Shown: positions 13,817 to 45,895, counted from the first letter of the stretch. The stretch is DNA of 64,000 bases from an uncultured Desulfobacterales bacterium (GCA_964194905.1 CAXMOD010000074.1:3940-67939), one strand, 5' to 3'. The notes: a model not told the origin generated them from the letters alone. Program-made: numbers and translations.

Positions 13817-15223
13817 CTAGAACTCCGGCCAGTGCTGCGCCCAGGGGCGCGCCTGCTCGAATGCATAGGATGCCTGCAGGCACAGATCGTCGCGGTGCCG
13901 CGGCCCCACGATCTGCAGGCCGACCGGAAGCCCGGCCTCGGACAGGCCCGCGCGCACCGTGGACGCCGGGTGCCACGACAGGTTGAACGGAATGGTGAAG
14001 GCGCCGACGCCCGCGTCCGGCAGCTTGTTGCCTTCGATCTCCTGCGGAAAGGGACCCTTGGCGGGGGGAGGGTCGAACGGAAGCGTGGGTGTGAGCAGCA
14101 GGTCGTACTGCCCGAAAATCTCCGCACACCAGCGATTGAGCTCCGCGCGGCGTCGCCGCGACTCGGCCCAACGCTCGGGTGTCATGCGCCACCCCTGCTT
14201 GACCCCCCAGATGAAACTGCGCCCGAACTCGTCCTCGTGCTCGGGAAGATACTGCGCGAGCTCGCCCGCCGCCTCGAAAGAGTTGGCCATGCCCCAGTCC
14301 CGGCCGAGCGCGGGCGGGCCGCCCTTCAACAGCTCCACGTGGTGACCCAGCTCGGCGAAGGCGGCGGCGGCGTCGCCTACCACCTCGGCCACGTCGCGCT
14401 GCACGGGTGTGAAGTCGAGATCCGGGGAAAACCCGATGCGCAGGCCGTCCGGCAGGTCGCGCAGGGTCTCGCGGTAGGAGATGCCGGGGTGCGGCAGCGA
14501 GTTCGGATCTTCGCGGTGCGGTCCCGCCACCAGATCGAGGTGCAGCGCCGCGTCCTCCACGGTGCGCGTGAGCGGCCCGTGTACCGACGTGTCGATGCTC
14601 ACCCAGAACGGCAAGGGTCCGTGGGGGATGCGGCCGTAGCTCACCTTGTGGCCGAAGCAGCCGGTCATGGCGGCGGGGAGGCGCACGGAGCCGCCGCCGT
14701 CGCTCGCCGTGCCCAGCGGCACGACGCCGCCGGCGATGGCGGCCGAGGTGCCTCCGCTCGAGCCGCCGGGGCTCCGGTCCAGGTTCCACGGGTTGCGGGT
14801 CACGCCGAAGATCAGATTCTTGGTGATGGCGGTGTAGCCGAACTCCGGCGCGTTGGTCTTGCCGATCACGATGGCGCCGGCGGCGCGCAGGCGTTCCACC
14901 TGATACGAGTCGCGCGTCGCCATGTTGTCCTTGAAGGGGACCGAGCCCTTCGAGGTCACGAGGCCCTCCGCGTCTTCCAGGTCCTTCACTCCGAGGGGTA
15001 CGCCCTCCAGCGGACGTGCGTCGTCGGCTGCGATGCGCTCCGCTGCGGCGCGCGCGTCGGCGAGACAGGCGTCGGCGTCGCGCATGGAGGTAAAGGCGTT
15101 CAGCGTGGGCTGCGTTTCTTCGATGCGTGCGAGCGTCTCCTCCATCAGCTCGACGGGAGACAGCTCGCGGGCGGCCAGGAGGCGCACGGTCTCGGTGAGG
15201 GATCGGTGCAGGGGGTCGGCCAT
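13817..15223 (-). CDS. Amidase-signature (AS) family amidase
   Basis: The ATG at 15223 is preceded by GAAGGAG. AS motif GGSSGGTSAAIAGG, with GVPLGVKD upstream of it. 468 aa. Confidence 0.88.
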   Translation of the reverse strand: MADPLHRSLTETVRLLAARELSPVELMEETLARIEETQPTLNAFTSMRDADACLADARAAAERIAADDARPLEGVPLGVKDLEDAEGLVTSKGSVPFKDNMATRDSYQVERLRAAGAIVIGKTNAPEFGYTAITKNLIFGVTRNPWNLDRSPGGSSGGTSAAIAGGVVPLGTASDGGGSVRLPAAMTGCFGHKVSYGRIPHGPLPFWVSIDTSVHGPLTRTVEDAALHLDLVAGPHREDPNSLPHPGISYRETLRDLPDGLRIGFSPDLDFTPVQRDVAEVVGDAAAAFAELGHHVELLKGGPPALGRDWGMANSFEAAGELAQYLPEHEDEFGRSFIWGVKQGWRMTPERWAESRRRRAELNRWCAEIFGQYDLLLTPTLPFDPPPAKGPFPQEIEGNKLPDAGVGAFTIPFNLSWHPASTVRAGLSEAGLPVGLQIVGPRHRDDLCLQASYAFEQARPWAQHWPEF

Positions 15224-15272
15224 GGCTGCTCCTTCGCTCGGGGGGAACAGTCTACCAGGGACGGGCCGGCTC

Positions 15273-16088
15273 CTAGGGCAGTCGCTCCAGGAAGGCACCC
15301 ACGTGACGCAGCACCATCGCCGGCTGGTCGATGTGGACGTGGTGGCCGGCTTCCGGGATCTCGATCAGCTCGGCGTGGGGCAGCTCTTCGCGGAAGCTGC
15401 GCGCCGCCTCGGCGCTGAGGAACGGGCTCTCGTCGCCGCGCAGCAGGAGCGTCGGGCACTGCACGCCGCCGAGCGGCGGCAGCTTGCGGTAGGGCAGCGC
15501 AAACCAGCGCGGGTCGAACTTGAAGCCGAAGCGGCCGTCGGGCTCCTCGCGGAGCGAGCGATCCGCGATGTGGTCGCGCAGGGCGGGGTCGGCGTGGTCG
15601 GCGGAGGGCAGGAAACGGAAGCGCTCCAGCGCGCGTTCGCGCTTGGCGTAGGTAACGCGCAGGGACAACGCCCGGCGCGCGGAGCGGCGTACTGCCCGCG
15701 GCATGCCCCAGGCCAGGTCGAGCAGCACCAGCCCGCGCGTATCCGAGACGCGCGCGGCGTGCTCCAGGGCCATGTGGGCGCCCATGGAGTGGCCGATCAA
15801 GCAGGCGGGCGGGGCGTCCAGGTGGTCCAGCAGCGCATCCAGATCGTCGCCGAAGGCGCCCACCGCCGTCTCGTCCGGGTAGTCGGAATCCCCGTGCCCG
15901 CGGAAGTCGAGCGCAACTACGTGGAAGTGCTCGGCCCAGGTCGGCGCCAGATGGTCCCACCAGTGGGCATTGGAGCCGCCTCCGTGCAGCAGCACGAGCG
16001 TCGGGAGCACGGGGTCGCCCCAGCGCAGGGTGTGAAGATTCACCCCTCGGAGGCTGGGCGCCGTGAATCGTTCGGAGCGGACATTCAC
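15273..16088 (-). CDS. Alpha/beta hydrolase
   Basis: 271 aa, GTG start. LVLLHGGGSNAHWW, nucleophile elbow GHSMGA, HxxxxD region near the C-terminus. Confidence 0.85.
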   Translation of the reverse strand: MNVRSERFTAPSLRGVNLHTLRWGDPVLPTLVLLHGGGSNAHWWDHLAPTWAEHFHVVALDFRGHGDSDYPDETAVGAFGDDLDALLDHLDAPPACLIGHSMGAHMALEHAARVSDTRGLVLLDLAWGMPRAVRRSARRALSLRVTYAKRERALERFRFLPSADHADPALRDHIADRSLREEPDGRFGFKFDPRWFALPYRKLPPLGGVQCPTLLLRGDESPFLSAEAARSFREELPHAELIEIPEAGHHVHIDQPAMVLRHVGAFLERLP

Positions 16089-16151
16089 GGCGCCGGATCC
16101 TAGTACCCCCCGGAATCGGCCGCCAGACGCCGTATGCAGGCGGTTTTGGCT

Positions 16152-16179
16152 TTGACTCCGACGGGGAGTCGCCTATGAT
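16152..16179 (+). promoter_or_regulatory. Sigma70-type promoter candidate for the histone-fold gene (TTGACT-N16-TATGAT)
   Basis: TTGACT at 16152-16157 and TATGAT at 16174-16179, with a 16-nt spacer. It lies ~43 nt upstream of the ATG at 16222. A purine-rich SD (GGAGGGAAAGAGGAA) sits in between. Confidence 0.55.
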
Positions 16180-16221
16180 GCGCCGTCGCCCGCGAAGGGC
16201 GCATGGAGGGAAAGAGGAACG

Positions 16222-16416
16222 ATGGCAGCCCGCAAGAAGTCGGCTCCGAAGGAGCTCATCATCTCCAAGGCCCGTACCAAGGCCGCGACCAAGAAGTGCA
16301 ACGTCGGCAGCGAGTTCTACGCTGCGCTCGACCAGCACGTGCGCCAGGCGATCGCCGCCGCCGAACAACGCGCGCTCGGCAACAAGCGCAAGACCCTGAA
16401 GGCGGTCGATCTCTAG
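16222..16416 (+). CDS. Bacterial histone-fold DNA-binding protein (DUF1931 / Bdellovibrio Bd0055-HBb-like)
   Basis: 64 aa and Lys/Arg-rich. The pattern ELIISKARTKAATKK-CNVGSEFYAALDQHVRQAIAAAEQRALGNKRKTLKAVDL aligns position by position with the DUF1931 singlet histone fold (..vskvK......mn.s.e....L...i......A...grKT....Dl). Confidence 0.75.
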   Translation: MAARKKSAPKELIISKARTKAATKKCNVGSEFYAALDQHVRQAIAAAEQRALGNKRKTLKAVDL

Positions 16417-16440
16417 TCGAGACCGATGACGTTCGAAGCG

Positions 16441-16480
16441 AAGGGCCCTCCGGAGTCATCCGGCGGGCCCTTTCGCGTTT
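16441..16480 (+). terminator. Hairpin terminator after the histone-fold gene
   Basis: 14-bp stem with one mismatch: AAGGGCCCTCCGGA (16441-16454), GTCA loop, TCCGGCGGGCCCTT (16459-16472). Followed by TTTCGCGTTT, a weak T tract. Confidence 0.55.
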
Positions 16481-16581
16481 CGGGCGAGATCTCCCGGATC
16501 GGCACTCTCGAATCGGCAGGTTTGGAGCAACTTCCGGCCGCTTTACTTCCACTTCCGGTCAGGACCATACTTCGAGGCCCC

Positions 16582-18015
16582 ATGAGCCTCCACGCCCGCC
16601 TGACCGAAGAGATCCGAGGCGGACCTTCGGGACCGAAGGTCGCGGCCCTCTTCGACCTGGACCAGACGCTTCTGGCCGGCTTCTCGGCCGTGTCCTTCTT
16701 CCAGGAGCGTCTCTTCTCCGGGCGCATGGCCCCGCGCGACATCGCCGACTCGCTGCTGGGCGGGCTCTCCTTCGCGGTCGGCCGCACCGGCTTCTCCGGC
16801 ATGATGTCGGCCACCACGGCGGCCTACCGGGGACTCGCGGAATCGGTGCTCGAGGAGATCGGCGAGGAGGTCTTCGAAAAGCACCTGGCCACGCAGATCT
16901 ACCCGGAGTCGCGCGCCCTGGTGCGAGCACACCAGGACATGGGCCACACCGTCGCGATCGTCTCCTCGGCCACGCCCTACCAGGCGCTACCGCTGGCGCG
17001 GGACATGGGCATCGAGCACGTGCTCTGCACCCGACTCGAGGTCAAGGACGGCATCTTCACGGGTGAAGTGCTGCGTCCCACGTGTTGGGGCGAGGGAAAG
17101 GCCGAGGCCGCGCGCGATCTCGCCGCGCGTCACGACCTCGACCTCGCCGAGAGCTGGTTCTACACCGACAGCCACGAGGACCTGCCGCTTCTCGAGAGCG
17201 TGGGGCGGCCGCGTCCGCTGAACCCGAACAGCCGGCTCGCGCAGATCGCCAAGGAGCGCCAGTGGCCGGTGCGTCGCTTCACCAGCCGCGGTCGTCCGGG
17301 CCTCGGCGACCTGATGCGCACCGGCATGGTCTACGCGAGCCTCGTGCCGTCGCTGTGGGCGAGCGCGGCGGCGGGCCTGGCGAGCGGCTCGCGGCGTGAG
17401 GCGACCAACGTATTCGCCTCGGTGTGGGGCGACCTCGCGACGTCGCTCGCCGGGATCGATCTGCGCGTCGACGGCGAGGAGCATCTCTGGGAGCGGCGGC
17501 CTGCGGTCTTCATCTTCAACCACCAGAGCGCTCTCGACGCGGTGCTGATGATCAAGCTGCTGCGCCGCGACCTGACCGGCGTCGGCAAGAAGGAAATCCA
17601 GCGCAACCCGATCTTCGGGCCACTGTTCACCGCTGCCGGAGTGGTCTTCGTGGACCGCGCCGACACCGGCAAGGCCATCGAGGCACTCAAACCCGCCGTC
17701 GACGCCCTGCGCGAGGGGCGCTCGCTCGTGATCGCGCCGGAGGGGACGCGTTCGCCGACGCCGCGCCTCGGCCGCTTCAAGAAGGGCGCGTTCCACATGG
17801 CGATGCAGGCGGGCGTGCCGATCGTCCCGGTGGTGTTCCGCAACGTGCTGGATGCACTGCCGAAGGACGCCATGGTCGTGCGGCCCGCCACGATCGAAGC
17901 GGTGGTGCTCCCGCCGGTCGAGACGACGGACTGGAGCGTCGAGCGCCTCGACGACGAGATCGAATCCATTCGCGCGCGCTACCTGGAGGTCCTCGGACAG
18001 CGCCAGGGCCTCTGA
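16582..18015 (+). CDS. HAD-IB hydrolase fused to 1-acyl-sn-glycerol-3-phosphate acyltransferase (PlsC-type)
   Basis: The ATG at 16582 is in frame with track ORF 16426..18015. The upstream codons are occupied by the terminator hairpin. HAD motif I FDLDQTLL. Acyltransferase motifs NHQSALD and IAPEGTRS. Confidence 0.85.
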   Translation: MSLHARLTEEIRGGPSGPKVAALFDLDQTLLAGFSAVSFFQERLFSGRMAPRDIADSLLGGLSFAVGRTGFSGMMSATTAAYRGLAESVLEEIGEEVFEKHLATQIYPESRALVRAHQDMGHTVAIVSSATPYQALPLARDMGIEHVLCTRLEVKDGIFTGEVLRPTCWGEGKAEAARDLAARHDLDLAESWFYTDSHEDLPLLESVGRPRPLNPNSRLAQIAKERQWPVRRFTSRGRPGLGDLMRTGMVYASLVPSLWASAAAGLASGSRREATNVFASVWGDLATSLAGIDLRVDGEEHLWERRPAVFIFNHQSALDAVLMIKLLRRDLTGVGKKEIQRNPIFGPLFTAAGVVFVDRADTGKAIEALKPAVDALREGRSLVIAPEGTRSPTPRLGRFKKGAFHMAMQAGVPIVPVVFRNVLDALPKDAMVVRPATIEAVVLPPVETTDWSVERLDDEIESIRARYLEVLGQRQGL

Positions 18016-18029
18016 AAGCGGGAGGAAGA

Positions 18030-19034
18030 ATGCAGCAGCTTCGCGTCTCCGTTCTGGGTGCCGGCTCCTTCGGTACGACCATGGCGCACCTCGCCACACG
18101 CAACGCACCCACCACATTGTGGTGCCGCCGCCCGGAAGTCGCCGACGAGATCAACGCGCAGCACACCCACGAGCGCTATCTCTCGGGCTACCCCTTGGCG
18201 CCCGAACTGCGCGCCACCACATCGCTGGAAGAGGCGGTGTCGGGGAGCGACGTCGTCGTGATGGGCGTGCCGTCCCACGGCATGCGCGAGGTGCTCTCCG
18301 GGGTGGCGCAGCACATCCGCCCCTGGGTCCCGATCGTGAGCCTGGCCAAGGGGCTCGAGCCCGGCACCCACCTGCGCATGACCGAGGTGATTCGCGAGGT
18401 GCTCCCCGAGCACCGCGCCGGCGTGATCACCGGTCCCAACCTGGCCAAGGAGATCATGGCCGGTTTCGCGGCGGCGAGTGTCGTGGCCTTCGACGAGTCG
18501 GACGTGGCGCGCCAGATCCAGAACGTCTTTCATTGCGGCGTCTTTCGCGTCTACACCAACCGCGACGTCGTGGGCTGCGAGCTGGGCGGCGCCCTCAAGA
18601 ACGTGATCGCCATCGCGACGGGCATGGGCGACGGGCTTGGCGTGGGCGACAACACGCGCTCGGCGGTGATCACCCGCGGACTCGCCGAGCTGATGCGCCT
18701 GGGCGTGGCCATGGGCGGCGAGCCCGCCACCTTCGCTGGGCTCGCGGGCATGGGCGACCTCATCGCCACTTGCACCAGTCGCCAGAGCCGCAACCGCCAC
18801 GTGGGCGAGGAGCTGGGCAAGGGCCGCACCATCGACGAGATCATCGCCGACATGAACCAGGTGGCGGAGGGCGTGAAGACCACGCGCGTGGTGATGGAGC
18901 TGGGCGCCAAGCACGGCGTGGACCTGCCGATCTCCCATGAGGTGCACGGCGTCCTCTACGAGGGGCGCACCGCCATCGATGCGTACCGCGGCCTCACCCG
19001 CCGCGTGCCCGGCGCCGAGCACGATCCCGACTGA
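18030..19034 (+). CDS. gpsA: NAD(P)H-dependent glycerol-3-phosphate dehydrogenase
   Basis: GGAGGA SD upstream of the ATG at 18030. Motifs VLGAGSFGTTMA, GPNLAKEI and GGALKNVIAIATG. 334 aa. Confidence 0.92.
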   Translation: MQQLRVSVLGAGSFGTTMAHLATRNAPTTLWCRRPEVADEINAQHTHERYLSGYPLAPELRATTSLEEAVSGSDVVVMGVPSHGMREVLSGVAQHIRPWVPIVSLAKGLEPGTHLRMTEVIREVLPEHRAGVITGPNLAKEIMAGFAAASVVAFDESDVARQIQNVFHCGVFRVYTNRDVVGCELGGALKNVIAIATGMGDGLGVGDNTRSAVITRGLAELMRLGVAMGGEPATFAGLAGMGDLIATCTSRQSRNRHVGEELGKGRTIDEIIADMNQVAEGVKTTRVVMELGAKHGVDLPISHEVHGVLYEGRTAIDAYRGLTRRVPGAEHDPD

Positions 19035-19047
19035 GCGTCCACTCCTC

Positions 19048-20709
19048 CTACTCGTCGAGGACGTGGAGCTCCAGGTGGGAAGGCTGGTCTGCGTCGTGGA
19101 AGAGGGTCTGGCGCGCGGGAGTGCCCTTCTCCGCAGTGGCGGGGTCCTCGCGCGTGTTGGGGTTGCGGTCGAAGCGCGGGAAGTTCGACGAAGAGATCTC
19201 GAGGCGCAGCCGGTGGCCGGCGGCCACGCGCGCCCCGGCGGCCCACAGGTCGATCTCCAGGCGCACGGGAACGTCGCGCTCGAGCCAGGTCGGCTCCTCG
19301 CCGCCCTCGCGCCAGCGGCAGCGCACGGCGCCCTCGGCCACGTTGATCGCCGTACCGTCGGGCGCCACGACCACGAGCTTGGCGGTGAAGTCCGTGTCCG
19401 GCGCGCTCGACGCCGCGTGGAGCACGCAGCGCAGCGGGCCCGCCACGAGCCTCGCGCGCATGCGGTTCGGGGGCTCGGTGAAGGTGAGCACGTCGGCGCG
19501 CGCTTCGACGCCGCGCTGGTCCACGGGACCACCGGGACCGATCAGCGCGCCGCCGCAGGTGGGAGCCGGGTCGTCGGGATCGTAGGTGAAGCGCGTCGGC
19601 TCTTCGGCGCCGGGCGGCTCCACGTCGAGCACGCCTCCGGCGCGCAGGTGGAGGCGCTCCACGCGCGCGTCGGGCGGCGGCCAGGCGCCGGCGTCGAGCC
19701 AGCGCTCCTCACCCCCCGCGCGGGCCACCGGGAGCAGGCGCACGGCAGGGGCCTCGCCTTCGTCTATGCCCAGCAGCTCGCGGTCGAGAAAGCGCAGCAT
19801 TTCGAGGACCGCAGCGCGCCCGAACCAGCGTGTGCGCGGCGACCAGGTGCGCTTCACGTAGCGCCCGTGGGACCAGGGCCCGAGCACCAGGCGTGTAGTG
19901 CCGGCGTCGGGGCTCGTCGCGAGCGCGGCGTGGTCGGCGAGCTGCGGACCGAGGAAGAAGTCCCACCAGCCGCCCACCAGAAGCGTCGCCGGTGCGCGGC
20001 TCACGTCGGGCCGGAAGGCCTGCCAGTACGCGTCGAGGCGCGGGTGGTCGAGCCAGTCCCGGTAGAAGTCGCGCCGGCGGATGGCGACCCGGTCTGCGGC
20101 GCGGATCGGGCGATGGCGCACGGCGCGCTCGAAGTCGATGCGCCGTTCCGGCAGCCCCTCGCGTTCACCGACCCCGGCCGCCCAGCGCAGCGCCGTCTCC
20201 AGCGAGAATGCGCCGCCGGGATAGAAGGCGTCATGGAGATTCGACGTGCCGATGCCGGCGGCGATCGCCTTCACCGGTTCCGGACAGGCCGCCTGGGCCG
20301 CCCATGCCGCGTAGGCCAGATAGGAGAACCCGACCAGGCCGACGCGACCGTCGCACCAACTCTGCTCCGCGGCCCAGGCTACGCAGCGCGCGCCGTCGGC
20401 GCCTTCGTTCACGAACGGGGTGAACGTCCCCTCGGAGGCGTAGCGGCCGCGCACGTCCTGCACTACCGCCGCGTGACCGGCTTCCGCAAAGACGCGTGCC
20501 AGCAGGAACATGGGCGTGGCCAGGCCGCGGGATCCGTAGGGCGTGCGCAGCAGCACGGCCGGCGCGCGCTCCACCCCGGTGGGACGCCACACCGTAGTCG
20601 CGAGGCGCACGCCGTCGGCCATCTCGACCCAGCGTGTATCCGTGGTGATGGAGCGGTGGCGCCGCGGCGGAAGGTCGAGCGCCCAGCGGAGGAGGCCCGA
20701 TGCGCTCAA
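19048..20709 (-). CDS. CocE/NonD-family (S15-like) alpha/beta hydrolase
   Basis: Motifs MADGVRLATTVWRP, RTPYGSRG and GFSYLAYAAW (nucleophile elbow), plus a C-terminal beta-domain. I propose the TTG start at 20709, forming a TTGA overlap with the upstream stop. The conservative alternative is the ATG at 20622. The remainder of track ORF 19048..21003 overlaps the upstream gene. Confidence 0.8.
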   Translation of the reverse strand: MSASGLLRWALDLPPRRHRSITTDTRWVEMADGVRLATTVWRPTGVERAPAVLLRTPYGSRGLATPMFLLARVFAEAGHAAVVQDVRGRYASEGTFTPFVNEGADGARCVAWAAEQSWCDGRVGLVGFSYLAYAAWAAQAACPEPVKAIAAGIGTSNLHDAFYPGGAFSLETALRWAAGVGEREGLPERRIDFERAVRHRPIRAADRVAIRRRDFYRDWLDHPRLDAYWQAFRPDVSRAPATLLVGGWWDFFLGPQLADHAALATSPDAGTTRLVLGPWSHGRYVKRTWSPRTRWFGRAAVLEMLRFLDRELLGIDEGEAPAVRLLPVARAGGEERWLDAGAWPPPDARVERLHLRAGGVLDVEPPGAEEPTRFTYDPDDPAPTCGGALIGPGGPVDQRGVEARADVLTFTEPPNRMRARLVAGPLRCVLHAASSAPDTDFTAKLVVVAPDGTAINVAEGAVRCRWREGGEEPTWLERDVPVRLEIDLWAAGARVAAGHRLRLEISSSNFPRFDRNPNTREDPATAEKGTPARQTLFHDADQPSHLELHVLDE

Positions 20710-21995
20710 GCGCGCAACGTTTCCGTTCGGATGTGGTACACGCGCAGTCCCGCCTGCACGTGGGTCCCCACCGCGAGGTAGGCGAGCACCGCTTCCACGT
20801 GACCCGTAGCGCCGGCGATGAGCGCGAGGAACAGGCGCCCGTCGCGGCCCAGCAGGAACCAGCGCGCGCGGCCCTCGCTCTCGTCGGCGTAGCGCCGCCG
20901 GAACTGGGTGCCGTACTTCTCCTTCACCAACATCGAGAGGCTGTTGCCCGCCATCGCGCCGAAGCCGAGCACGATGGCCGACGATCCGGCGCCGAGCGCC
21001 CACGCCCAGAGCGTCATCCCGCCGATCAGGAACGTCTCACCGACGCGGTCGAGGATGGCGTCGTAGAGCCCGCCGAAGGGCGAGTCCTGGTAGCGGATGT
21101 GGGCCACCTCGCCTTCCACACCGTCGATGACCGAGGCGCTCTGGGCCAGCAACCCACCCGTCAGCCCGTGCCCCATTGCGAAGGAGATGCCGGCACCCAT
21201 CGTGCCGAGGAACGACGCCACCGAGATCTGCCACGGCTTGACGTTGCGCGACACCAGGCGCTCGGTGATGCGCCGGGAGAGGGGACGGTTCAGGTGGCGC
21301 GCGACCATGCCGTCGGCAACGCCGACGGCGCCGGCGAGGATCTTGCGCCGGGCGAGGGGCACGTCCGCCTCGCAGCGCACCTCCTGCCACAGCTCGGCCA
21401 CGCTCCACGGCTTTACCGGCTCGCGCGCCGCCAGCGTGGTGAACGCCTGCGCCAGCGAGCGCTTCTCGGGGAGCTGCTCGTCGAGCACCCGGGCGAAGCC
21501 GGGCGTGACCAGCGCCAGCCCGGTGAGGACGGCGTCGGCGCCCACCAGGGACTCGGCGGCCATGCGCAGGGTCTCGCCGCCCGGCCAGAACGCCGCGCGC
21601 GCGGCGCCCTCGTGGGCGGCGAGCGCGTCCTCGCGCAGGTCCACCGCCACCCGTGCGCCCACCTCGGCGTGGGTTCCCTCGACGAAGCGTGCGATCAGGC
21701 GGCGGTCGAGGTGCGAGTCGGTCGCCGCGACGAAGACCGGCTCACCCGAGCCAAGGGCGCCCGACAGGTTCTCCACGGCGCGCACGCGCGCGCGTCGGCA
21801 GGGACCCTCGTGCAACAGCGCGTACACGCGCCGCGCTTCGTCGGGATCGCCGGTGACGAGAAACTCGCGGACGCCGGCGCGCAGGAACGCCAGGACGGTC
21901 CGCTCGACCGGCTGAAGTGTGAAGATGGGGGTGCGCTGGGCCGGTCCGGAGCCGGTCGCAAACAGGACGCAGCGTCGCCGGTCAGGCGTCTCCAT
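20706..21995 (-). CDS. Bifunctional IPCT/DIPPS-like protein: N-terminal nucleotidyltransferase-like domain fused to a membrane CDP-alcohol phosphatidyltransferase domain
   Basis: 429 aa. The C-terminal polytopic domain carries the CDP-alcohol transferase signature in the DIPPS-like form IDGVEGEVAH-x8-FGGLYDAILDR. The linker ADGMVARHLNRPLSRRI..KPWQISVASFL parallels archaeal IPCT/DIPPS. The N-terminal loop VLFATGSGPAQRTP is a divergent version of the GxGTRxxxxPK motif. Overlaps the MIPS gene by 14 nt. Confidence 0.75.
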   Translation of the reverse strand: METPDRRRCVLFATGSGPAQRTPIFTLQPVERTVLAFLRAGVREFLVTGDPDEARRVYALLHEGPCRRARVRAVENLSGALGSGEPVFVAATDSHLDRRLIARFVEGTHAEVGARVAVDLREDALAAHEGAARAAFWPGGETLRMAAESLVGADAVLTGLALVTPGFARVLDEQLPEKRSLAQAFTTLAAREPVKPWSVAELWQEVRCEADVPLARRKILAGAVGVADGMVARHLNRPLSRRITERLVSRNVKPWQISVASFLGTMGAGISFAMGHGLTGGLLAQSASVIDGVEGEVAHIRYQDSPFGGLYDAILDRVGETFLIGGMTLWAWALGAGSSAIVLGFGAMAGNSLSMLVKEKYGTQFRRRYADESEGRARWFLLGRDGRLFLALIAGATGHVEAVLAYLAVGTHVQAGLRVYHIRTETLRA

Positions 21996-23115
21996 CGGTG
22001 AGGAACTCTTCGATCCTCCGCGCAGCCTCCACGTCGTGCATCTGCACGGGCGGGTGCTTCATCGTGTACGCGGAGATCGGCAGCTGGGGTCCCGCGAGTC
22101 CGCGATCGCGGGCCAGCTTGATGTAGCGGATGATGTCGATCACGATGCCCGCCGAGTTGGGCGAGTCCTGCACGGACAGGCGCGCCTCCAGCTCGATCGG
22201 TGCTCCACCGAAGCCCTTGCCCTCGATGCGCAGGAAGCAGAGCTTGTTGTCCTTCTGCCACGGCACGTAGTCGCTGGGGCCGATGTGGACGTTGTCTGCT
22301 CCGATGTCGTAGGGGATCTGCGAGGTGACGGCCTCGGTCTTCGAGATCTTCTTCGACTTGAGGCGCTGGCGCTCCAGCATGTTGAGGAAGTCCGTGTTGC
22401 CGCCGGTGTTGAGCTGGTAGGTCCGCTCCACCTTCACGCCGCGGTCGGCGAAGAGCTTCACCGCCATGCGGTGCAGGATGGTGGCGCCCAGCTGGCTCTT
22501 GATGTCGTCGCCAGCGCAGGGAATGCCCGCTGCGCGGAAGCGCTCCCCCCACTGGGGGTCCGACACGATGAAGACCGGCACGCAGTTGACGAGCGAGACG
22601 CCCGTCGCGAGGCACGCTTCGGCGTAGCCCTGGACCGCCTTCTCCGAGCCGACCGGCAGGTAGGAGAGCAGGATGTCGGCGCCGGTCTCTTCCAGCACCT
22701 TGGCCACGTCCACCGGCTTCTCGTCCGAGGCGCGGAAGGCCTTGTCCGGCGGGTAGTCCGCCATATGGGCGGCGATCCCGTCGTGGATCGGCGCCATCTG
22801 GACCGCCACGTCGCTCTTCGCGACGGAATCTGCGATGACCGAGGTGCAGTTCGGAGCCGCGAAGGCCGCCTCGTGGATGGGCTTTCCGACCTTGCGCACG
22901 TCGATGTCGAACGCCGCTACCACCTCGACGTCGGCCGGCCGGTAGCCGCCCATGTCGAGATGCATCAAGCCCCAGGCTTCCTGGGCCTCGGCCGGCACGC
23001 CGCGGTAGTGGTCGATGCCTTGCAGCAGCGAGCTCGCACAGTTGCCCAGTCCGGCGATGGCAATGCGCACGCGGCGCTCGCCCCCGGTTCCCCCACCCGT
23101 GGTCTTGTTCGTCAT
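21982..23115 (-). CDS. ino1: myo-Inositol-1-phosphate (inositol-3-phosphate) synthase
   Basis: 377 aa. N-terminal VRIAIAGLGNCASSLLQGI plus full-length resemblance to bacterial/archaeal MIPS (GDDIKSQLGAT, NTGGNTDF). Confidence 0.92.
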   Translation of the reverse strand: MTNKTTGGGTGGERRVRIAIAGLGNCASSLLQGIDHYRGVPAEAQEAWGLMHLDMGGYRPADVEVVAAFDIDVRKVGKPIHEAAFAAPNCTSVIADSVAKSDVAVQMAPIHDGIAAHMADYPPDKAFRASDEKPVDVAKVLEETGADILLSYLPVGSEKAVQGYAEACLATGVSLVNCVPVFIVSDPQWGERFRAAGIPCAGDDIKSQLGATILHRMAVKLFADRGVKVERTYQLNTGGNTDFLNMLERQRLKSKKISKTEAVTSQIPYDIGADNVHIGPSDYVPWQKDNKLCFLRIEGKGFGGAPIELEARLSVQDSPNSAGIVIDIIRYIKLARDRGLAGPQLPISAYTMKHPPVQMHDVEAARRIEEFLTDGDA

Positions 23116-23158: not shown

Positions 23159-23174
23159 GTGACGGGCCCGTCAC
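23159..23174. repeat. Perfect 16-nt palindrome GTGACGGGCCCGTCAC
   Basis: Self-complementary over all 16 nt. Spans the stop codon of the 23171..24343 gene and lies 44 nt upstream of the MIPS start codon on the minus strand. Confidence 0.9.
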
Positions 23175-24343
23175 TCCGCCGCCGCGGACGTCTCCGCGGG
23201 CTCTTCCGGGGGGAGTTCCCCTCGAAGATTGGCGCCCACGCGGAAGAGTCGGGCCAGCGGCGTCCGGCGCAGAACCTCCGTTGGATCGAGGCCATGGGCC
23301 TCGGCCAGGTGCTCGAGCCCGCTGCTGGCGAGCTCCGCCGCTCGCTCGATGGCGCGGGGGCTGGACTCGGCGTCGCCCAGGGGCATGCGGTCGGCCACGG
23401 CCACCGAGTTCGAGAGACCCAGCAGGGCGTAGAGGAAGGTGCTGCGGCGGTCCGAGTCGAGCTCCGCAGCGGCCCGGAAGACCAGAAGGCGGGCATCCGG
23501 CGCCACCGGCAGCTCGGGCTGCAGGACCGGGAGACGCCCTGTCTCCGTGTCGAGCGCGTGGGCATCCGCGGGCAGGTCGCCGAGCTGCTCCGGGGGCAGG
23601 TGGGAGTAGAGGGCGAGCACGGCCTGGCTGCGCGGCGGGAAGCCGAGGTCCTCGAGGCGGCCATCGCGCCAGCGCTCCGCCCAGACCGCGGTCTCCTCGT
23701 CCAGTTCCCAGATGGCGCCCTGCATGAGCCGGAAGTAGAGCCAGTAGTCGCCGCTGAAGAGCGCGTGCATGAGCCGGGTGAGCGCGGCGACGTCGTCGCC
23801 CTCGTGGAGTGGCCGCCAGTAGAACTGGCCTTCGAGCGTCCGGCTTTGGGCAGGAGGCTGCCAGTCCTGGTCGTCGTTCGGCGGCTTCAGCCACACCTCG
23901 ATGCGCGAGCGCAGCTCGAGCACCAGGAGCTCCGCGTCGAGCGCCTGCGCGGCACGCAGCAAGGCGGGGTCCCCCGCCTCCGCCAGCACCTCGAGCCAGT
24001 TGCCCAGCGCGACGGTGTCGAGTGTGTCCGCATTCCACGCGTCCAGGTCCACCGCCGCCACGATCTGCTCCGGGGTGGCCAGCTCCAGGATCCAGGCGGC
24101 GTCCGAGACGCCGAGTTCCTTCACCGTGAAGCAGAGCTCCGCCTCGGGGAGCAGCGGGATCAGCTTCTCGGGCTCGCCGGCCAGGTCGAGCAGTTCGCGG
24201 CGCCGGTTGAGGGGCGAGCGGCAGATGAGTTCCACCTGGGCCTCGGGGGAGAGGTCCGAGAACGCGGCTCGGGCGGCAGGCTTGTCGCGCCGTGCCAGCC
24301 CGAGGATGCGCCGGGCTTCGGCCGGAAGCGTGGGGAGGGACAT
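23171..24343 (-). CDS. Conserved-looking hypothetical protein (acidic, helical; no family recognised)
   Basis: 390-aa ORF with saturated GC3. No TM segments and no motif I can assign. Confidence 0.75.
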   Translation of the reverse strand: MSLPTLPAEARRILGLARRDKPAARAAFSDLSPEAQVELICRSPLNRRRELLDLAGEPEKLIPLLPEAELCFTVKELGVSDAAWILELATPEQIVAAVDLDAWNADTLDTVALGNWLEVLAEAGDPALLRAAQALDAELLVLELRSRIEVWLKPPNDDQDWQPPAQSRTLEGQFYWRPLHEGDDVAALTRLMHALFSGDYWLYFRLMQGAIWELDEETAVWAERWRDGRLEDLGFPPRSQAVLALYSHLPPEQLGDLPADAHALDTETGRLPVLQPELPVAPDARLLVFRAAAELDSDRRSTFLYALLGLSNSVAVADRMPLGDAESSPRAIERAAELASSGLEHLAEAHGLDPTEVLRRTPLARLFRVGANLRGELPPEEPAETSAAAE

Positions 24344-27241: not shown

Positions 27242-27444
27242 AGGTTCCTCCGGGCCTCGTAGCCCGGACACTCCCGGACCGGGAGCGGCGGGTAGCGGCG
27301 GTACGAGGCGTCGGTGTCCGCGCGTTTGCAGCGCCAGAACCCCTGGCCCTTGGCGCTGGTCTGCGTCAGCACGTGGGCGCAGGCCGAGCAGAGACCCACT
27401 TCGGGAAGCGGCACGTCGCGAAGCGGGTCCCTCGGCTTCGGCAT
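27238..27444 (-). CDS. Small cysteine-rich hypothetical protein (CxxC ... C ... C, possible Zn/Fe-S ribbon)
   Basis: 68 aa with high GC3. Cys pattern LCSACAH..WRCKR..VRECPGY. ATGA overlap with the ACT-domain gene. Confidence 0.65.
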   Translation of the reverse strand: MPKPRDPLRDVPLPEVGLCSACAHVLTQTSAKGQGFWRCKRADTDASYRRYPPLPVRECPGYEARRNL

Positions 27445-27468
27445 CCCGGCATTCTACAATCGCAGCTC

Positions 27469-28344
27469 GTGGGACGCCTCCGAGATACGTCGACCCGCCT
27501 GGGACGGGTGCTGGAGCTGGCCGAGCGCCTGTTGGAAAGGCGCGTGGGCTCAACACCTCGGCCGGAGTTCTTCGAGCGGCACTTGGCCTTTCGCTGGGAG
27601 GCCGGGCCCGAGGGCGGCTGGCTCGTGCCCATCCGCACGCCGCAGCACTTCGATCTGGAGGATCTGGTGGGCGTGGATCTCTCGCTGGAGCGCCTGGTGC
27701 GCAACACCGAGCAGTTCGTGCGCGGCCTGCCCTCGAACCACGTGCTGCTCCATGGCGAGCGCGGCACGGGCAAGTCCTCTGCCGTGCGCGGTCTCCTCTC
27801 GCGGTTCGCCGGCCACGGCCTGCGCGTGGTGGAGGTGCACAAGCAGGACCTGATGCATCTGCCGCGCATCCTCGACTCGCTGCGGGAGGCATCCTTGCGC
27901 TTCGTACTCTACTGCGACGATCTCTCCTTCGACGCGGGAGAGCCCGGCTACCGCGAGCTGAAGGCTGCGATGGAGGGGAGCTTCCAGGCGCCGCCCGAGA
28001 ACGTGCGCATCATCGCCACCAGCAACCGCCGCCATCTCCTGCCGGAGTCGCCGAGCGACGCCGACGCGCGCCTCGACGAGCACGGCGACCTGCATCTGGG
28101 CGAGGTCGTGGACGAGAAGCTGGCGCTCTCTGACCGCTTCGGTCTGATGCTCGGCTTCTACGGCTTCGACCAGGACACCTATCTCGACATCGTGCGCCGC
28201 TACGCGGAGAAGGCCGGCCTCGACGCGCCCTGGGAGGAGGTGCGCGCGGCCGCCCTCACCTGGAGCGTGCGCCGAGCCAGCCGCTCGGGCAGGACCGCCC
28301 GCCAGTTCGTAGATGACTTCACCGGCTCCCGCGCCCTCGATTGA
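27469..28344 (+). CDS. DUF815-type AAA-like ATPase
   Basis: Walker A LHGERGTGKSS, Walker B-like VLYCDDLSF, ATSNRRHLLPE. The GTG at 27469 is in frame with track ORF 27373..28344 and is the first start that does not overlap the divergent gene. Confidence 0.75.
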   Translation: MGRLRDTSTRLGRVLELAERLLERRVGSTPRPEFFERHLAFRWEAGPEGGWLVPIRTPQHFDLEDLVGVDLSLERLVRNTEQFVRGLPSNHVLLHGERGTGKSSAVRGLLSRFAGHGLRVVEVHKQDLMHLPRILDSLREASLRFVLYCDDLSFDAGEPGYRELKAAMEGSFQAPPENVRIIATSNRRHLLPESPSDADARLDEHGDLHLGEVVDEKLALSDRFGLMLGFYGFDQDTYLDIVRRYAEKAGLDAPWEEVRAAALTWSVRRASRSGRTARQFVDDFTGSRALD

Positions 28345-45430: not shown

Positions 45431-45895
45431 ATGCTCACTCTCGACGAGCTCGAACCGGGCCTGGCCGTCACCCACAAGAACACGGGCTTCCGTTACAAGC
45501 TGGGCGACGTTGGGGACGACGAGGTGCTGCTCACCCCGGACGACGGAAACCTGCAGGACCTGCTGGTTCCGATCGACCTCTTCCGGGCCGAGTTCGTGGC
45601 CAGCGATCGCTACAGCGCCCGCCGGGGTCGCGGTGGGGGCCGCCGGCGCAGCCCCCAGGCCGCGCCGACCGGGCCCAAGGTGCGCGGGCGCATCAAGAAG
45701 ATGGTGCGAGACCGCGGCTTCGGGTTCATCCGCGGCGACGACGGCAAGGAGGTCTTCTTCCACCGTTCCGGTCTCGGCGGCGCCGACTACGACGCTCTCG
45801 GCGAGGGCGACGTGGTCGAGTACAACGTGCAGGAGAGCCCGCGCGGGCCGCGTGCCGAGAACGTCCGCGGCGTGACGGACGTCGCCACCGCCTAG
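45431..45895 (+). CDS. Cold-shock-domain protein with an extra N-terminal domain and an Arg/Gly-rich linker
   Basis: 154 aa. C-terminal CSD GRIKKMVRDRGFGFIRGDDGKEVFFHRSGL..GDVVEYNV (RNP1-like GFGFI, RNP2-like VFFH). Linker RRGRGGGRRR. The ~65-aa N-terminal domain is unassigned. Confidence 0.85.
   Translation: MLTLDELEPGLAVTHKNTGFRYKLGDVGDDEVLLTPDDGNLQDLLVPIDLFRAEFVASDRYSARRGRGGGRRRSPQAAPTGPKVRGRIKKMVRDRGFGFIRGDDGKEVFFHRSGLGGADYDALGEGDVVEYNVQESPRGPRAENVRGVTDVATA

What the first reader, a model, noticed from the sequence alone, without database searches (positions are those of the whole stretch)
16152..16480. Monocistronic bacterial histone-fold (DUF1931/Bd0055-like) gene framed by a near-consensus promoter and a strong hairpin
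The 64-aa basic protein matches the singlet histone-fold pattern described for Bdellovibrio Bd0055/HBb and other DUF1931 proteins (..LIISKARTKAATKK-NVGSEF..L..HV...I..A...A..N.RKTL...DL). It has TTGACT-N16-TATGAT, a purine-rich SD and a 14-bp-stem terminator. This is the signature of a highly expressed stand-alone nucleoid protein. Bacterial histones have only recently been characterised and are usually annotated as hypothetical, so one in a very GC-rich diderm is worth a look.
Basis: partly seen in the sequence, partly recalled or inferred. Interest (0 to 1): 0.6.

Follow-up and report, generated by a model that had tools for sequence, protein, structure and literature searches.

The report
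Face-to-face bacterial histone gene
This is a real, self-contained gene for a 64-residue bacterial histone, but it belongs to the tetramer-forming, DNA-wrapping "face-to-face" subfamily (like HLp and HTkC) rather than the Bd0055 or DUF1931 types, so it is a new member of a recently described family.

Summary
ORF 16222-16416 (+) encodes a 64-aa protein (pI 10.4). It lies between the only strong sigma-70 match in the 64-kb window (TTGACT-16-TATGAT, 16152-16179) and a 14-bp GC hairpin (16440-16473). Promoter, ribosome-binding site, ORF and hairpin recur together in dozens of related Myxococcota-like MAG loci.

The protein is a histone. The AF2 model (pLDDT 82) has a short alpha2 and a one-turn alpha3. 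Its top Foldseek PDB hits are HTkC, HLp and HBb. Sequence profiles hit HTkC at 6e-19, HLp at 5e-14 and HBb at 4e-13.

The family label needs correcting. Pfam DUF1931 gives no hit, and the protein is a single fold, not a pseudodimer. Unlike HBb/Bd0055, it keeps the face-to-face (FtF) tetramer residues R50, N54 and R56 and ends one residue after D63. It is 59% identical to A0A518BNL0, which Schwab et al. 2024 classify as FtF.

The most likely function is an abundant nucleoid protein that forms a toroidal tetramer and wraps about 60 bp of DNA. The tetramer, DNA binding and expression level are inferred, not shown. FtF histones were already catalogued in Myxococcota, so this is a new member of a known kind and of moderate interest.

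The parts
16142..16151 (+). T-rich stretch (GGTTTTGGCT) just upstream of the -35 hexamer; possible UP-like element
   Evidence: A T-run occupies the same position in 19 of 20 aligned orthologous promoters, in genomes of about 70% GC. Its function is inferred.
16152..16157 (+). -35 hexamer TTGACT
   Evidence: Scanner hit. It is part of the only >=10/12 match in the 64 kb. TTGAC(T/A) is conserved upstream of orthologs in about 50 of 77 loci.
16174..16179 (+). -10 hexamer TATGAT, after a 16-nt spacer
   Evidence: The transcription start is inferred near 16185-16187 and was not measured.
16205..16219 (+). Purine-rich Shine-Dalgarno region (GGAGGGAAAGAGGAA)
   Evidence: Read from the sequence. GGAGG-like motifs lie 4-12 nt upstream of ATGGC in nearly all of 77 orthologous loci.
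16222..16416 (+). Histone gene: 64 codons plus stop (TAG at 16414-16416)
   Evidence: ORF list. GC3 is 0.83. There are 1099 homologs at E <= 1e-3. It is the only histone-fold ORF in the window.
16222..16251 (+). Codons 1-10: basic, disordered N-terminal tail (MAARKKSAPK)
   Evidence: Mean pLDDT is 56 for residues 1-10. Among homologs the tail always begins MAA(R/K)KK but varies in length.
16267..16287 (+). Codons 16-22: helix alpha1, with conserved K16, R18 and K20
   Evidence: AF2 secondary structure. K16, R18 and K20 are present in 100% of 120 close homologs.
16309..16380 (+). Codons 30-53: helix alpha2 (24 residues), containing R50
   Evidence: AF2 model. R50 is invariant. It aligns with HTkC R45, whose R45A mutant forms dimers instead of tetramers.
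16381..16413 (+). Codons 54-64: loop L2, one-turn alpha3 and the C-terminus (N54-K-R56-K57-T58-LKAV-D63-L64)
   Evidence: This is the RxTxxxxD motif plus the FtF residue N54. All of these positions are 96-100% conserved. The chain ends one residue after D63, as in HLp and HTkC.
16440..16473 (+). 14-bp GC-rich hairpin (GAAGGGCCC-T-CCGGA-GTCA-TCCGG-C-GGGCCCTTT); probable transcription terminator
   Evidence: The same AGGGCCC...GGGCCCT hairpin lies just downstream of the gene in 17 orthologous loci and nowhere else in them. Hairpins of <= -20 kcal/mol are found in 83% of 76 loci.
16474..16483 (+). Weakly U-rich tail after the hairpin (CGCGTTTCGG)
   Evidence: Read from the sequence. It does not meet the scanner's T-run criterion.

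Best explanation

Proposed mechanism:
1. A strong, conserved sigma-70-type promoter with an upstream T-tract starts an mRNA of roughly 290 nt. The mRNA has a 5'UTR of about 36 nt and ends at a GC-rich hairpin (inferred).
2. The 64-aa product has a disordered Lys/Arg-rich tail (residues 1-10) and a minimal histone fold: alpha1 16-22, alpha2 30-53 and a one-turn alpha3 61-63 (modelled).
3. Two chains form the usual head-to-tail histone dimer. Two dimers then close into a toroidal tetramer through R50, N54, R56 and the C-terminal carboxylate of L64 (inferred by homology with HTkC and HLp).
4. About 60 bp of DNA wraps around the positively charged rim without sequence specificity. Contacts would come from the S15-K16 helix end, the alpha1 lysines, the L1/L2 bridge (K57-T58) and the tail. 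This would make the protein an abundant nucleoid-compacting protein (inferred).
For: **It is a real gene.**
- 1099 homologs at E <= 1e-3.
- 31 of 64 positions are invariant in 31 sequences.
- GC3 is 0.83.

**It has a histone fold.**
- AF2 model with pLDDT 82 and helices 16-22, 30-53 and 61-63.
- Top Foldseek PDB hits are HTkC, HLp (rmsd 1.3 A, TM 0.86) and HBb, followed by generic histone folds.
- Profile A2 hits HTkC at 6.4e-19, HLp at 5.2e-14, HBb at 4.2e-13, and then NF-YB, HMfA/B and H4.

**It is the FtF type.**
- The close-homolog profile hits only HTkC (8.6e-7) and HLp (0.023) in the PDB. It does not hit HBb at E <= 10.
- R50, N54, R56, T58 and D63 are 100% conserved in 120 close homologs and 96-100% in 149 representatives. 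These match the FtF signature R48/N52/R54/T56/D61 and the HLp tetramer residues R49/N53/R55.
- HBb has S and D at the R50 and N54 positions.
- HTkC R45, which aligns with R50, binds the C-terminal carboxylate of the opposing dimer, and the R45A mutant is a dimer. This protein likewise ends at D63+1.
- It is 59% identical (BLASTP 1e-20) to P0286 = A0A518BNL0. Schwab et al.'s source data label that protein 'Face-to-face'.

**The transcription unit is conserved.**
-.

**DNA wrapping is shown for relatives.**
- It has been shown experimentally for HLp and HTkC.
Against: - The tetramer is not tested here.
- Schwab et al. place FtF histones in Myxococcota but 'bacterial dimers' in Myxococcota_A. The GTDB placement of this uncultured lineage is unknown.
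- K57 gives an RKT motif, which is also typical of bacterial dimers and nucleosomal histones. This feature is not discriminating, since HTkC has it too.
- The labelled relative A0A518BNL0 has only a moderate tetramer ipTM of 0.61.
- The protein itself gets no Pfam or NCBIfam hit.
- There are no expression, DNA-binding or oligomer data for this protein.
- The hairpin lacks a canonical U-tract.
Confidence: 0.78

Rival explanations
1. It is an HBb/Bd0055-like 'bacterial dimer' histone. It acts only as a dimer and bends DNA rather than wrapping it.
For: - It has the same alpha3-truncated fold, and HBb chains are among the top Foldseek hits with TM 0.73-0.77.
- HBb is hit by profile A2 at 4e-13.
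- The RKTxxxxD motif is present.
- Bacterial dimers are reported in Myxococcota_A.
- The tetramer was not tested here.
Against: - Bacterial dimers are defined as lacking R48 and N52. Here R50 and N54 are invariant, while HBb has S and D at these positions.
- The close-homolog profile does not reach HBb at E <= 10 but does reach both solved FtF histones.
- The chain ends at D+1, as FtF histones do. In the HBb chain 8CMP, five more residues follow the aligned D-I (66 residues, alignment ending at 61).
- The protein is 59% identical to a relative labelled FtF.
Confidence: 0.12
2. It is a histone-fold protein that does not organise chromatin. It could be a protein-protein scaffold or a specific regulator, as proposed for true DUF1931 pseudodimers.
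For: - The histone fold is also used by non-chromatin proteins. NF-Y, TAFs and CENP-X appear among the weak hits.
- NCBI names some cluster members 'DUF1931 domain-containing protein'.
- No DNA-binding data exist for this protein.
Against: - The net charge is +9.6 and the pI is 10.4.
- K16, R18, K20, K24 and K25 on alpha1 and R56-K57-T58 in L2 are conserved. They correspond to the DNA-contacting elements of HLp.
- The protein has a basic N-terminal tail.
- It is a single fold rather than a pseudodimer.
- It gets no Pfam DUF1931 hit.
- No partner gene is conserved in an operon with it.
Confidence: 0.07
3. It is not a functional gene, only a chance ORF with chance promoter-like and hairpin-like flanks in GC-rich DNA.
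For: In DNA of about 71% GC, long spurious ORFs are common on all frames.
Against: - More than 1000 homologs have strongly conserved sequence.
- Promoter, ribosome-binding site and hairpin are conserved in position across dozens of loci.
- The model shows a confident histone fold.
Confidence: 0.01

Closest known systems
HLp, the face-to-face histone of Leptospira perolatii (PDB 9QT0, 9QT1, 9QT2; PMC12701072)
   Same: - It is a bacterial singlet alpha3 histone of about 63 aa with a short basic N-terminal tail.
- R49/N53/R55 correspond to R50/N54/R56 here. The RD clamp R55-D62 corresponds to R56-D63.
- The chain ends one residue after the conserved Asp.
- It gives the best structural superposition with the model: rmsd 1.3 A, TM 0.86.
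   Different: - Sequence identity is only about 23%.
- HLp has T56 where this protein has K57.
- HLp lies next to SMC, MAP and DUF350 genes. This gene lies divergent from an alpha/beta hydrolase and an amidase.
- The HLp tetramer and its wrapping of about 60 bp are experimentally shown. Here they are inferred.
HTkC, the archaeal face-to-face histone of Thermococcus kodakarensis (PDB 9F2C; PMC11390915; bioRxiv 10.64898/2025.12.06.692711)
   Same: - It is the best sequence match in the PDB: E 0.018 for the single sequence, 8.6e-7 and 6.4e-19 for the profiles, with 19 of 52 residues identical.
- HTkC R45 aligns with R50 here.
- It has the RKT motif.
- It ends at D+1.
   Different: - It is archaeal and has no N-terminal tail.
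- It has E at the N54 position.
- It coexists with nucleosomal histones.
A0A518BNL0 (Engelhardtia mirabilis) and D0LYZ1 (Haliangium ochraceum), bacterial FtF histones in the Schwab et al. 2024 catalogue
   Same: - A0A518BNL0 is 59% identical over the fold and is labelled 'Face-to-face'.
- D0LYZ1 is a myxobacterial FtF histone with an H3-like basic tail.
   Different: - Their tails are much longer: A0A518BNL0 is 89 aa in total.
- None of these proteins has been characterised experimentally.
HBb / Bd0055, the bacterial dimer histone of Bdellovibrio bacteriovorus (PDB 8CMP, 8FVX, 9EZZ, 9F0E)
   Same: - It has the alpha3-truncated histone fold and the RKTxxxxD motif.
- It is small, basic and stand-alone.
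- Structural TM score is 0.73-0.77.
   Different: - HBb has S and D at the positions of R50 and N54.
- Five more residues follow the aligned D-I in the 8CMP chain (66 residues, alignment ending at 61).
- It forms only dimers and bends DNA.
- The close-homolog profile does not detect it.
True DUF1931 pseudodimeric histones (Pfam PF09123; Aquifex Aq_328 1R4V, Thermus 1WWI)
   Same: - They belong to the histone-fold superfamily.
- The NCBI name 'DUF1931 domain-containing protein' is applied to some cluster members, and to HLp itself in the PDB.
   Different: - They have two folds in one chain and lack DNA-binding residues.
- This protein gets no PF09123 hit at E <= 10.
- 1R4V and 1WWI are not among the top 60 PDB profile hits.

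Membership tests
Histone fold, alpha3-type (Schwab et al. 2024) | Helix-loop-helix-loop-helix fold with a shortened alpha2 and an alpha3 truncated to about one turn | tested here: met
   The AF2 model has helices 16-22, 30-53 and 61-63, with pLDDT 82. The top Foldseek PDB hits are the three solved alpha3 histones.
Histone fold, alpha3-type (Schwab et al. 2024) | RxTxxxxD motif (L2 loop and RD clamp) | tested here: met
   R56-K57-T58-LKAV-D63. R56 is 99-100% conserved, and T58 and D63 are 100% conserved.
Histone fold, alpha3-type (Schwab et al. 2024) | Profile-level sequence homology to solved histones | tested here: met
   Profile A2 against the PDB hits HTkC at 6e-19, HLp at 5e-14, HBb at 4e-13, and then HMfA/B, NF-YB and H4 at 0.02-0.3.
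Face-to-face (FtF) histones | Conserved dimer-dimer residues R48 and N52 of the HMM (HLp R49/N53; HTkC R45) | tested here: met
   R50 and N54 are 100% conserved in 120 close homologs and 97% and 96% in 149 representatives. They align with the HTkC and HLp residues.
Face-to-face (FtF) histones | Chain ends one residue after the conserved Asp, so the C-terminal carboxylate can pair with the Arg of the opposing dimer | tested here: met
   D63-L64-stop. All 31 sequences in A1 end D-L or D-I. The mechanism is described for HTkC.
Face-to-face (FtF) histones | Closed toroidal homotetramer, predicted or measured (the defining criterion) | not testable with these tools
No multimer predictor or coordinates are available.
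Face-to-face (FtF) histones | Clusters with proteins already classified as FtF | tested here: met
   It is 59% identical to A0A518BNL0, which is labelled Face-to-face in the Schwab source data. The close-homolog profile reaches only FtF structures.
Bacterial dimer histones (HBb/Bd0055) | Lack of the FtF residues R48 and N52 | tested here: not met
   R50 and N54 are present and invariant, whereas HBb has S and D.
Bacterial dimer histones (HBb/Bd0055) | Forms dimers only and bends DNA | not testable with these tools
   There is no multimer prediction and no experiment.
DUF1931 (Pfam PF09123) pseudodimeric histones | Match to the Pfam DUF1931 model | tested here: not met
   No family is hit at E <= 10. 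Only weak hits (best 8.8e-4) occur, in 20 of 44 relatives, and these are matched equally by CBFD_NFYB_HMF.
DUF1931 (Pfam PF09123) pseudodimeric histones | Two histone folds in one chain, without DNA-binding residues | tested here: not met
   The protein is a single 64-aa fold. Its basic alpha1 and RKT residues are conserved.
Sigma-70-type promoter | -35 and -10 hexamers close to consensus at 16-18 nt spacing, conserved in orthologs | tested here: met
   It matches 10 of 12 positions with a 16-nt spacer. It is unique in the 64 kb. It is conserved in about 50 of 77 loci, together with an upstream T-tract.
Sigma-70-type promoter | Mapped transcription start site | not testable with these tools
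   No transcriptome data are available.
Intrinsic (Rho-independent) terminator | GC-rich hairpin immediately followed by a U-run | tested here: inconclusive
   The hairpin is strong and conserved. The tail is CGCGUUUCGG, and the UUU lies inside the stem, so the scanner made no call.

The most novel reading that the evidence does not exclude
In this uncultured, GC-rich Myxococcota-like lineage the FtF histone could be the principal chromatin protein. It would form nucleosome-like tetramer particles of about 60 bp across the chromosome. Its conserved MAARKK tail (here AARKKSAP, resembling histone H3 residues 24-30, AARKSAP) could be a target of regulatory modification. That would make it a bacterial counterpart of histone-tail signalling.
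Probability: 0.08. Interest if true: 0.8.

Novelty: new member of a known kind. Interest (0 to 1): 0.35.

Why it matters
Bacterial histones are rare, and only two have been characterised (HBb and HLp).

- **A good candidate for experiments.** This locus is a clean example from a lineage with no characterised member, an uncultured GC-rich Myxococcota-like group. Its fold core is very strongly conserved and it has more than 1000 relatives. Promoter, gene and hairpin are conserved together, which suggests high constitutive expression. That makes it a good candidate for testing whether tetrameric DNA wrapping is general among bacterial FtF histones.
- **An annotation gap.** Pfam and NCBIfam give the protein no name. 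The 'DUF1931' label that some databases use mixes three mechanistically different histone types.

Tried and rejected
- **Single-sequence family scans.** Pfam and NCBIfam gave no hits.
- **Pfam on 44 relatives.** Only weak, sub-threshold hits appeared, split equally between DUF1931 and CBFD_NFYB_HMF.
- **Tetramer test.** I built a four-copy fusion with Gly-Ser linkers and a matching alignment.
- **AFDB fold search.** I wanted UniProt-labelled neighbours, but the library was not available.
- **Mapping close homologs to the Schwab categories.** The first cluster look-up gave no UniProt accessions. The second gave A0A518BNL0, which worked.
- **5'UTR structure.** The fold is not better than shuffled sequence, z = +0.74.
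- **RNA genes.** Rfam and tRNA scans of the window found nothing.
- **Viral or mobile origin.** There are no relatives in IMG/VR (one search failed for lack of conserved stretches).
- **Source genome.** The exact protein is found only on one 1.7-kb metagenome contig, ERR13301385.
- **HU/IHF in the window.** This says nothing about the rest of the genome.
- **Functional link to the downstream genes.** The HAD-acyltransferase and GpsA genes are not conserved downstream of the orthologs.

Full report
**1. Observation**

- The ORF at 16222-16416 (+) encodes the 64-aa protein MAARKKSAPKELIISKARTKAATKKCNVGSEFYAALDQHVRQAIAAAEQRALGNKRKTLKAVDL. ATG 16222 is the first start codon after the in-frame stop.
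- The protein is 6.97 kDa, with pI 10.4 and net charge +9.6. GC3 is 0.83, typical of coding sequence in this window of about 71% GC.
- TTGACT-N16-TATGAT lies at 16152-16179. It was the one promoter-like hit in a 3-kb scan against 0.2 expected. By my own scan it is the only >=10/12 sigma-70 match on either strand of the whole 64 kb.
- A purine-rich GGAGGGAAAGAGGAA stretch lies at 16205-16219.
The surrounding 87 nt fold at -46.9 kcal/mol, z = -4.06.
- The hairpin has no canonical U-run, so the terminator scanner did not call it.

**2. The whole unit is conserved**

- A genome scan found 80 related loci, all of them MAGs. Most are labelled Myxococcota or Deltaproteobacteria.
- In about 50 of 77 loci a TTGAC(T/A)-16-TATGAT promoter precedes the gene. 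An alignment of 20 loci shows the -35, the spacer, the -10 and a T-run just upstream of the -35 in register.
- GGAGG-like ribosome-binding sites precede ATGGC almost everywhere.
- GC-rich hairpins of <= -20 kcal/mol follow the stop codon in 83% of 76 loci.
- The specific AGGGCCC...GGGCCCT hairpin occurs once in the window against 0.03 expected. It occurs once, always just after the gene, in 17 orthologous loci.
- Upstream, a divergent alpha/beta hydrolase (15273-16088, -) and an amidase (13817-15298, -) are syntenic in many loci. The downstream HAD-acyltransferase fusion (16582-18015) and GpsA (18030-19034) are not.
- The gene therefore behaves as a self-contained, vertically inherited unit. 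Monocistronic transcription is inferred, not measured.

**3. What the protein is**

- Single-sequence Pfam and NCBIfam scans give nothing.
- The protein has 1099 homologs at E <= 1e-3. Some are named 'histone H3/H4' by JGI or 'DUF1931 domain-containing protein' by NCBI.
- The best PDB sequence match is 9F2C (E 0.018). This is the archaeal face-to-face histone HTkC.
- A profile of close homologs (A1) hits only HTkC (8.6e-7) and the bacterial FtF histone HLp (0.023), and nothing else meaningful at E <= 10.
- A broader profile (A2) was built after an exhaustive search that found 369 representatives at E <= 1e-3. It hits HTkC at 6.4e-19, HLp at 5.2e-14 and HBb/Bd0055 at 4.2e-13. Weaker hits follow to HmvA, NF-YB, HMfA/B and H4.
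- The AF2 model has pLDDT 82 and helices at 16-22, 30-53 and 61-63. This is a histone fold with a short alpha2 and a one-turn alpha3.
- Foldseek against the PDB ranks HTkC, HLp (rmsd 1.3 A, TM 0.86) and HBb first. Generic histone folds follow.
- The histone-fold interpretation is therefore solid.

**4. Which histone**

The literature separates three kinds:
- True DUF1931 proteins are pseudodimers without DNA-binding residues.
- 'Bacterial dimers' such as HBb/Bd0055 lack R48 and N52 of the FtF profile, and they bend DNA.
- Face-to-face (FtF) histones close into a toroidal tetramer through R48 and N52 and wrap DNA.

This protein fits the FtF type on five counts:
- Its motif R50-x3-N54-x-R56-K-T58-x4-D63 has exactly the FtF spacing.
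- In the diverse alignment A2 the invariant columns are R50, T58 and D63. The >=90% columns are F32, L36, A47, N54 and R56.
- Across 120 close homologs these residues are 100% conserved. Across 149 representatives they are 96-100% conserved. HBb has S and D at the R50 and N54 positions.
- R50 aligns with HTkC R45. That residue salt-bridges the C-terminal carboxylate of the opposing dimer, and the R45A mutant is a dimer. Like HTkC and HLp, this protein ends one residue after the conserved Asp. The HLp tetramer residues R49, N53 and R55 all have equivalents here.
- It is 59% identical (BLASTP 1e-20) to A0A518BNL0 of Engelhardtia mirabilis. Schwab et al.'s source data label that protein 'Face-to-face'.

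The basic, variable-length tail that always starts MAA(R/K)KK also fits what is described for bacterial FtF histones.

I therefore file it as an FtF alpha3 histone. It is not Bd0055-like and it is not a Pfam DUF1931 protein.

**5. What remains untested**

- The defining FtF property, the tetramer, could not be tested.
- Schwab et al. report bacterial dimers in Myxococcota_A and FtF histones in Myxococcota. I cannot place this uncultured lineage in GTDB.
- Expression level, DNA binding and wrapping are inferred from the promoter and from homology to HLp and HTkC.
- Whether the genome has HU or IHF is unknown. None is present in this window, and there is only one histone-fold ORF.

**6. Mechanism proposed**

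1. A strong promoter with an upstream T-tract drives a short monocistronic mRNA that ends at the hairpin.
2. The protein dimerises head-to-tail.
3. Two dimers close into a torus through R50, N54, R56 and the L64 carboxylate.
4. About 60 bp of DNA wraps around the basic rim. The S15-K16 helix end, the alpha1 lysines, the L1/L2 bridge (K57-T58) and the tail would make the contacts.

The fold rests on the AF2 model, and the residue conservation and the conserved gene architecture are shown directly. Steps 1 to 4 are inferred.

**7. Novelty**

FtF histones were catalogued in Myxococcota in 2024, and HLp was characterised in 2025. This is a new member of a known kind. Its value is as a clean, strongly conserved and probably highly expressed example from an uncharacterised lineage. 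It also shows that the 'DUF1931' label hides mechanistically distinct histones.

Noticed in passing
window 16222-16248 (residues 2-9): The tail sequence AARKKSAP closely resembles histone H3 residues 24-30, AARKSAP (the K27 region; H3 sequence recalled from memory). Only the MAA(R/K)KK start is conserved among homologs, so the similarity is probably compositional.
   Followed up: partly
related loci L011, L015, L022-L024, L029-L036, L042, L080 and others, compared with window 16180-16221: In most orthologous loci the conserved promoter lies 100-200 nt upstream of the start codon, which gives a long leader containing a small hairpin and a G-run. The window and its closest relative L001 have only about a 36-nt leader, as if the leader had been deleted. 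I did not test whether the long leader is regulatory.
   Followed up: partly
window 16129-16151: A short hairpin followed by a T-run lies directly upstream of the -35 hexamer. The scanner called it terminator-like. Similar small hairpin-plus-T-run elements occupy the same place in many orthologous loci. It could be an insulating terminator or an UP element.
   Followed up: partly
window 13817-16088 (-): A divergent alpha/beta hydrolase and an amidase are syntenic with the histone gene across many MAG loci at 50-80% amino-acid identity. No functional link is evident.
   Followed up: partly
window 16582-19034 (+) and 20706-23115 (-): This is a lipid-synthesis neighbourhood. It holds a HAD-phosphatase/PlsC-acyltransferase fusion, GpsA, a weak CDP-alcohol phosphatidyltransferase match (just below Pfam's cut-off: 21.8 vs 22 bits) and a myo-inositol-1-phosphate synthase. 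Together they suggest inositol phospholipid synthesis.
   Followed up: no
proteins P0181, P0184, P0191, P0198, P0199, P0204, P0215, P0243: Relatives of about 117-122 aa contain two tandem copies of this histone fold. These are natural pseudodimers that keep the R..N.RKT....D motif in both halves. They differ from the classical DUF1931 doublets.
   Followed up: no
loci L034, L062, L069, L070: Fold cores 67-78% identical occur in MAGs labelled Latescibacterota, Eisenbacteria, Planctomycetota and NC10, as well as in MAGs labelled 'Spirochaetales'. This could reflect very strong purifying selection, horizontal transfer or mislabelled bins.
   Followed up: no
window 23171-24343 (-), 27373-28344 (+), 45431-45895 (+): Other genes of unknown or general nucleic-acid function lie in the window: a DUF6178 protein, a DUF815 AAA-type ATPase, and a cold-shock-domain ORF whose true start is probably internal.
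   Followed up: no
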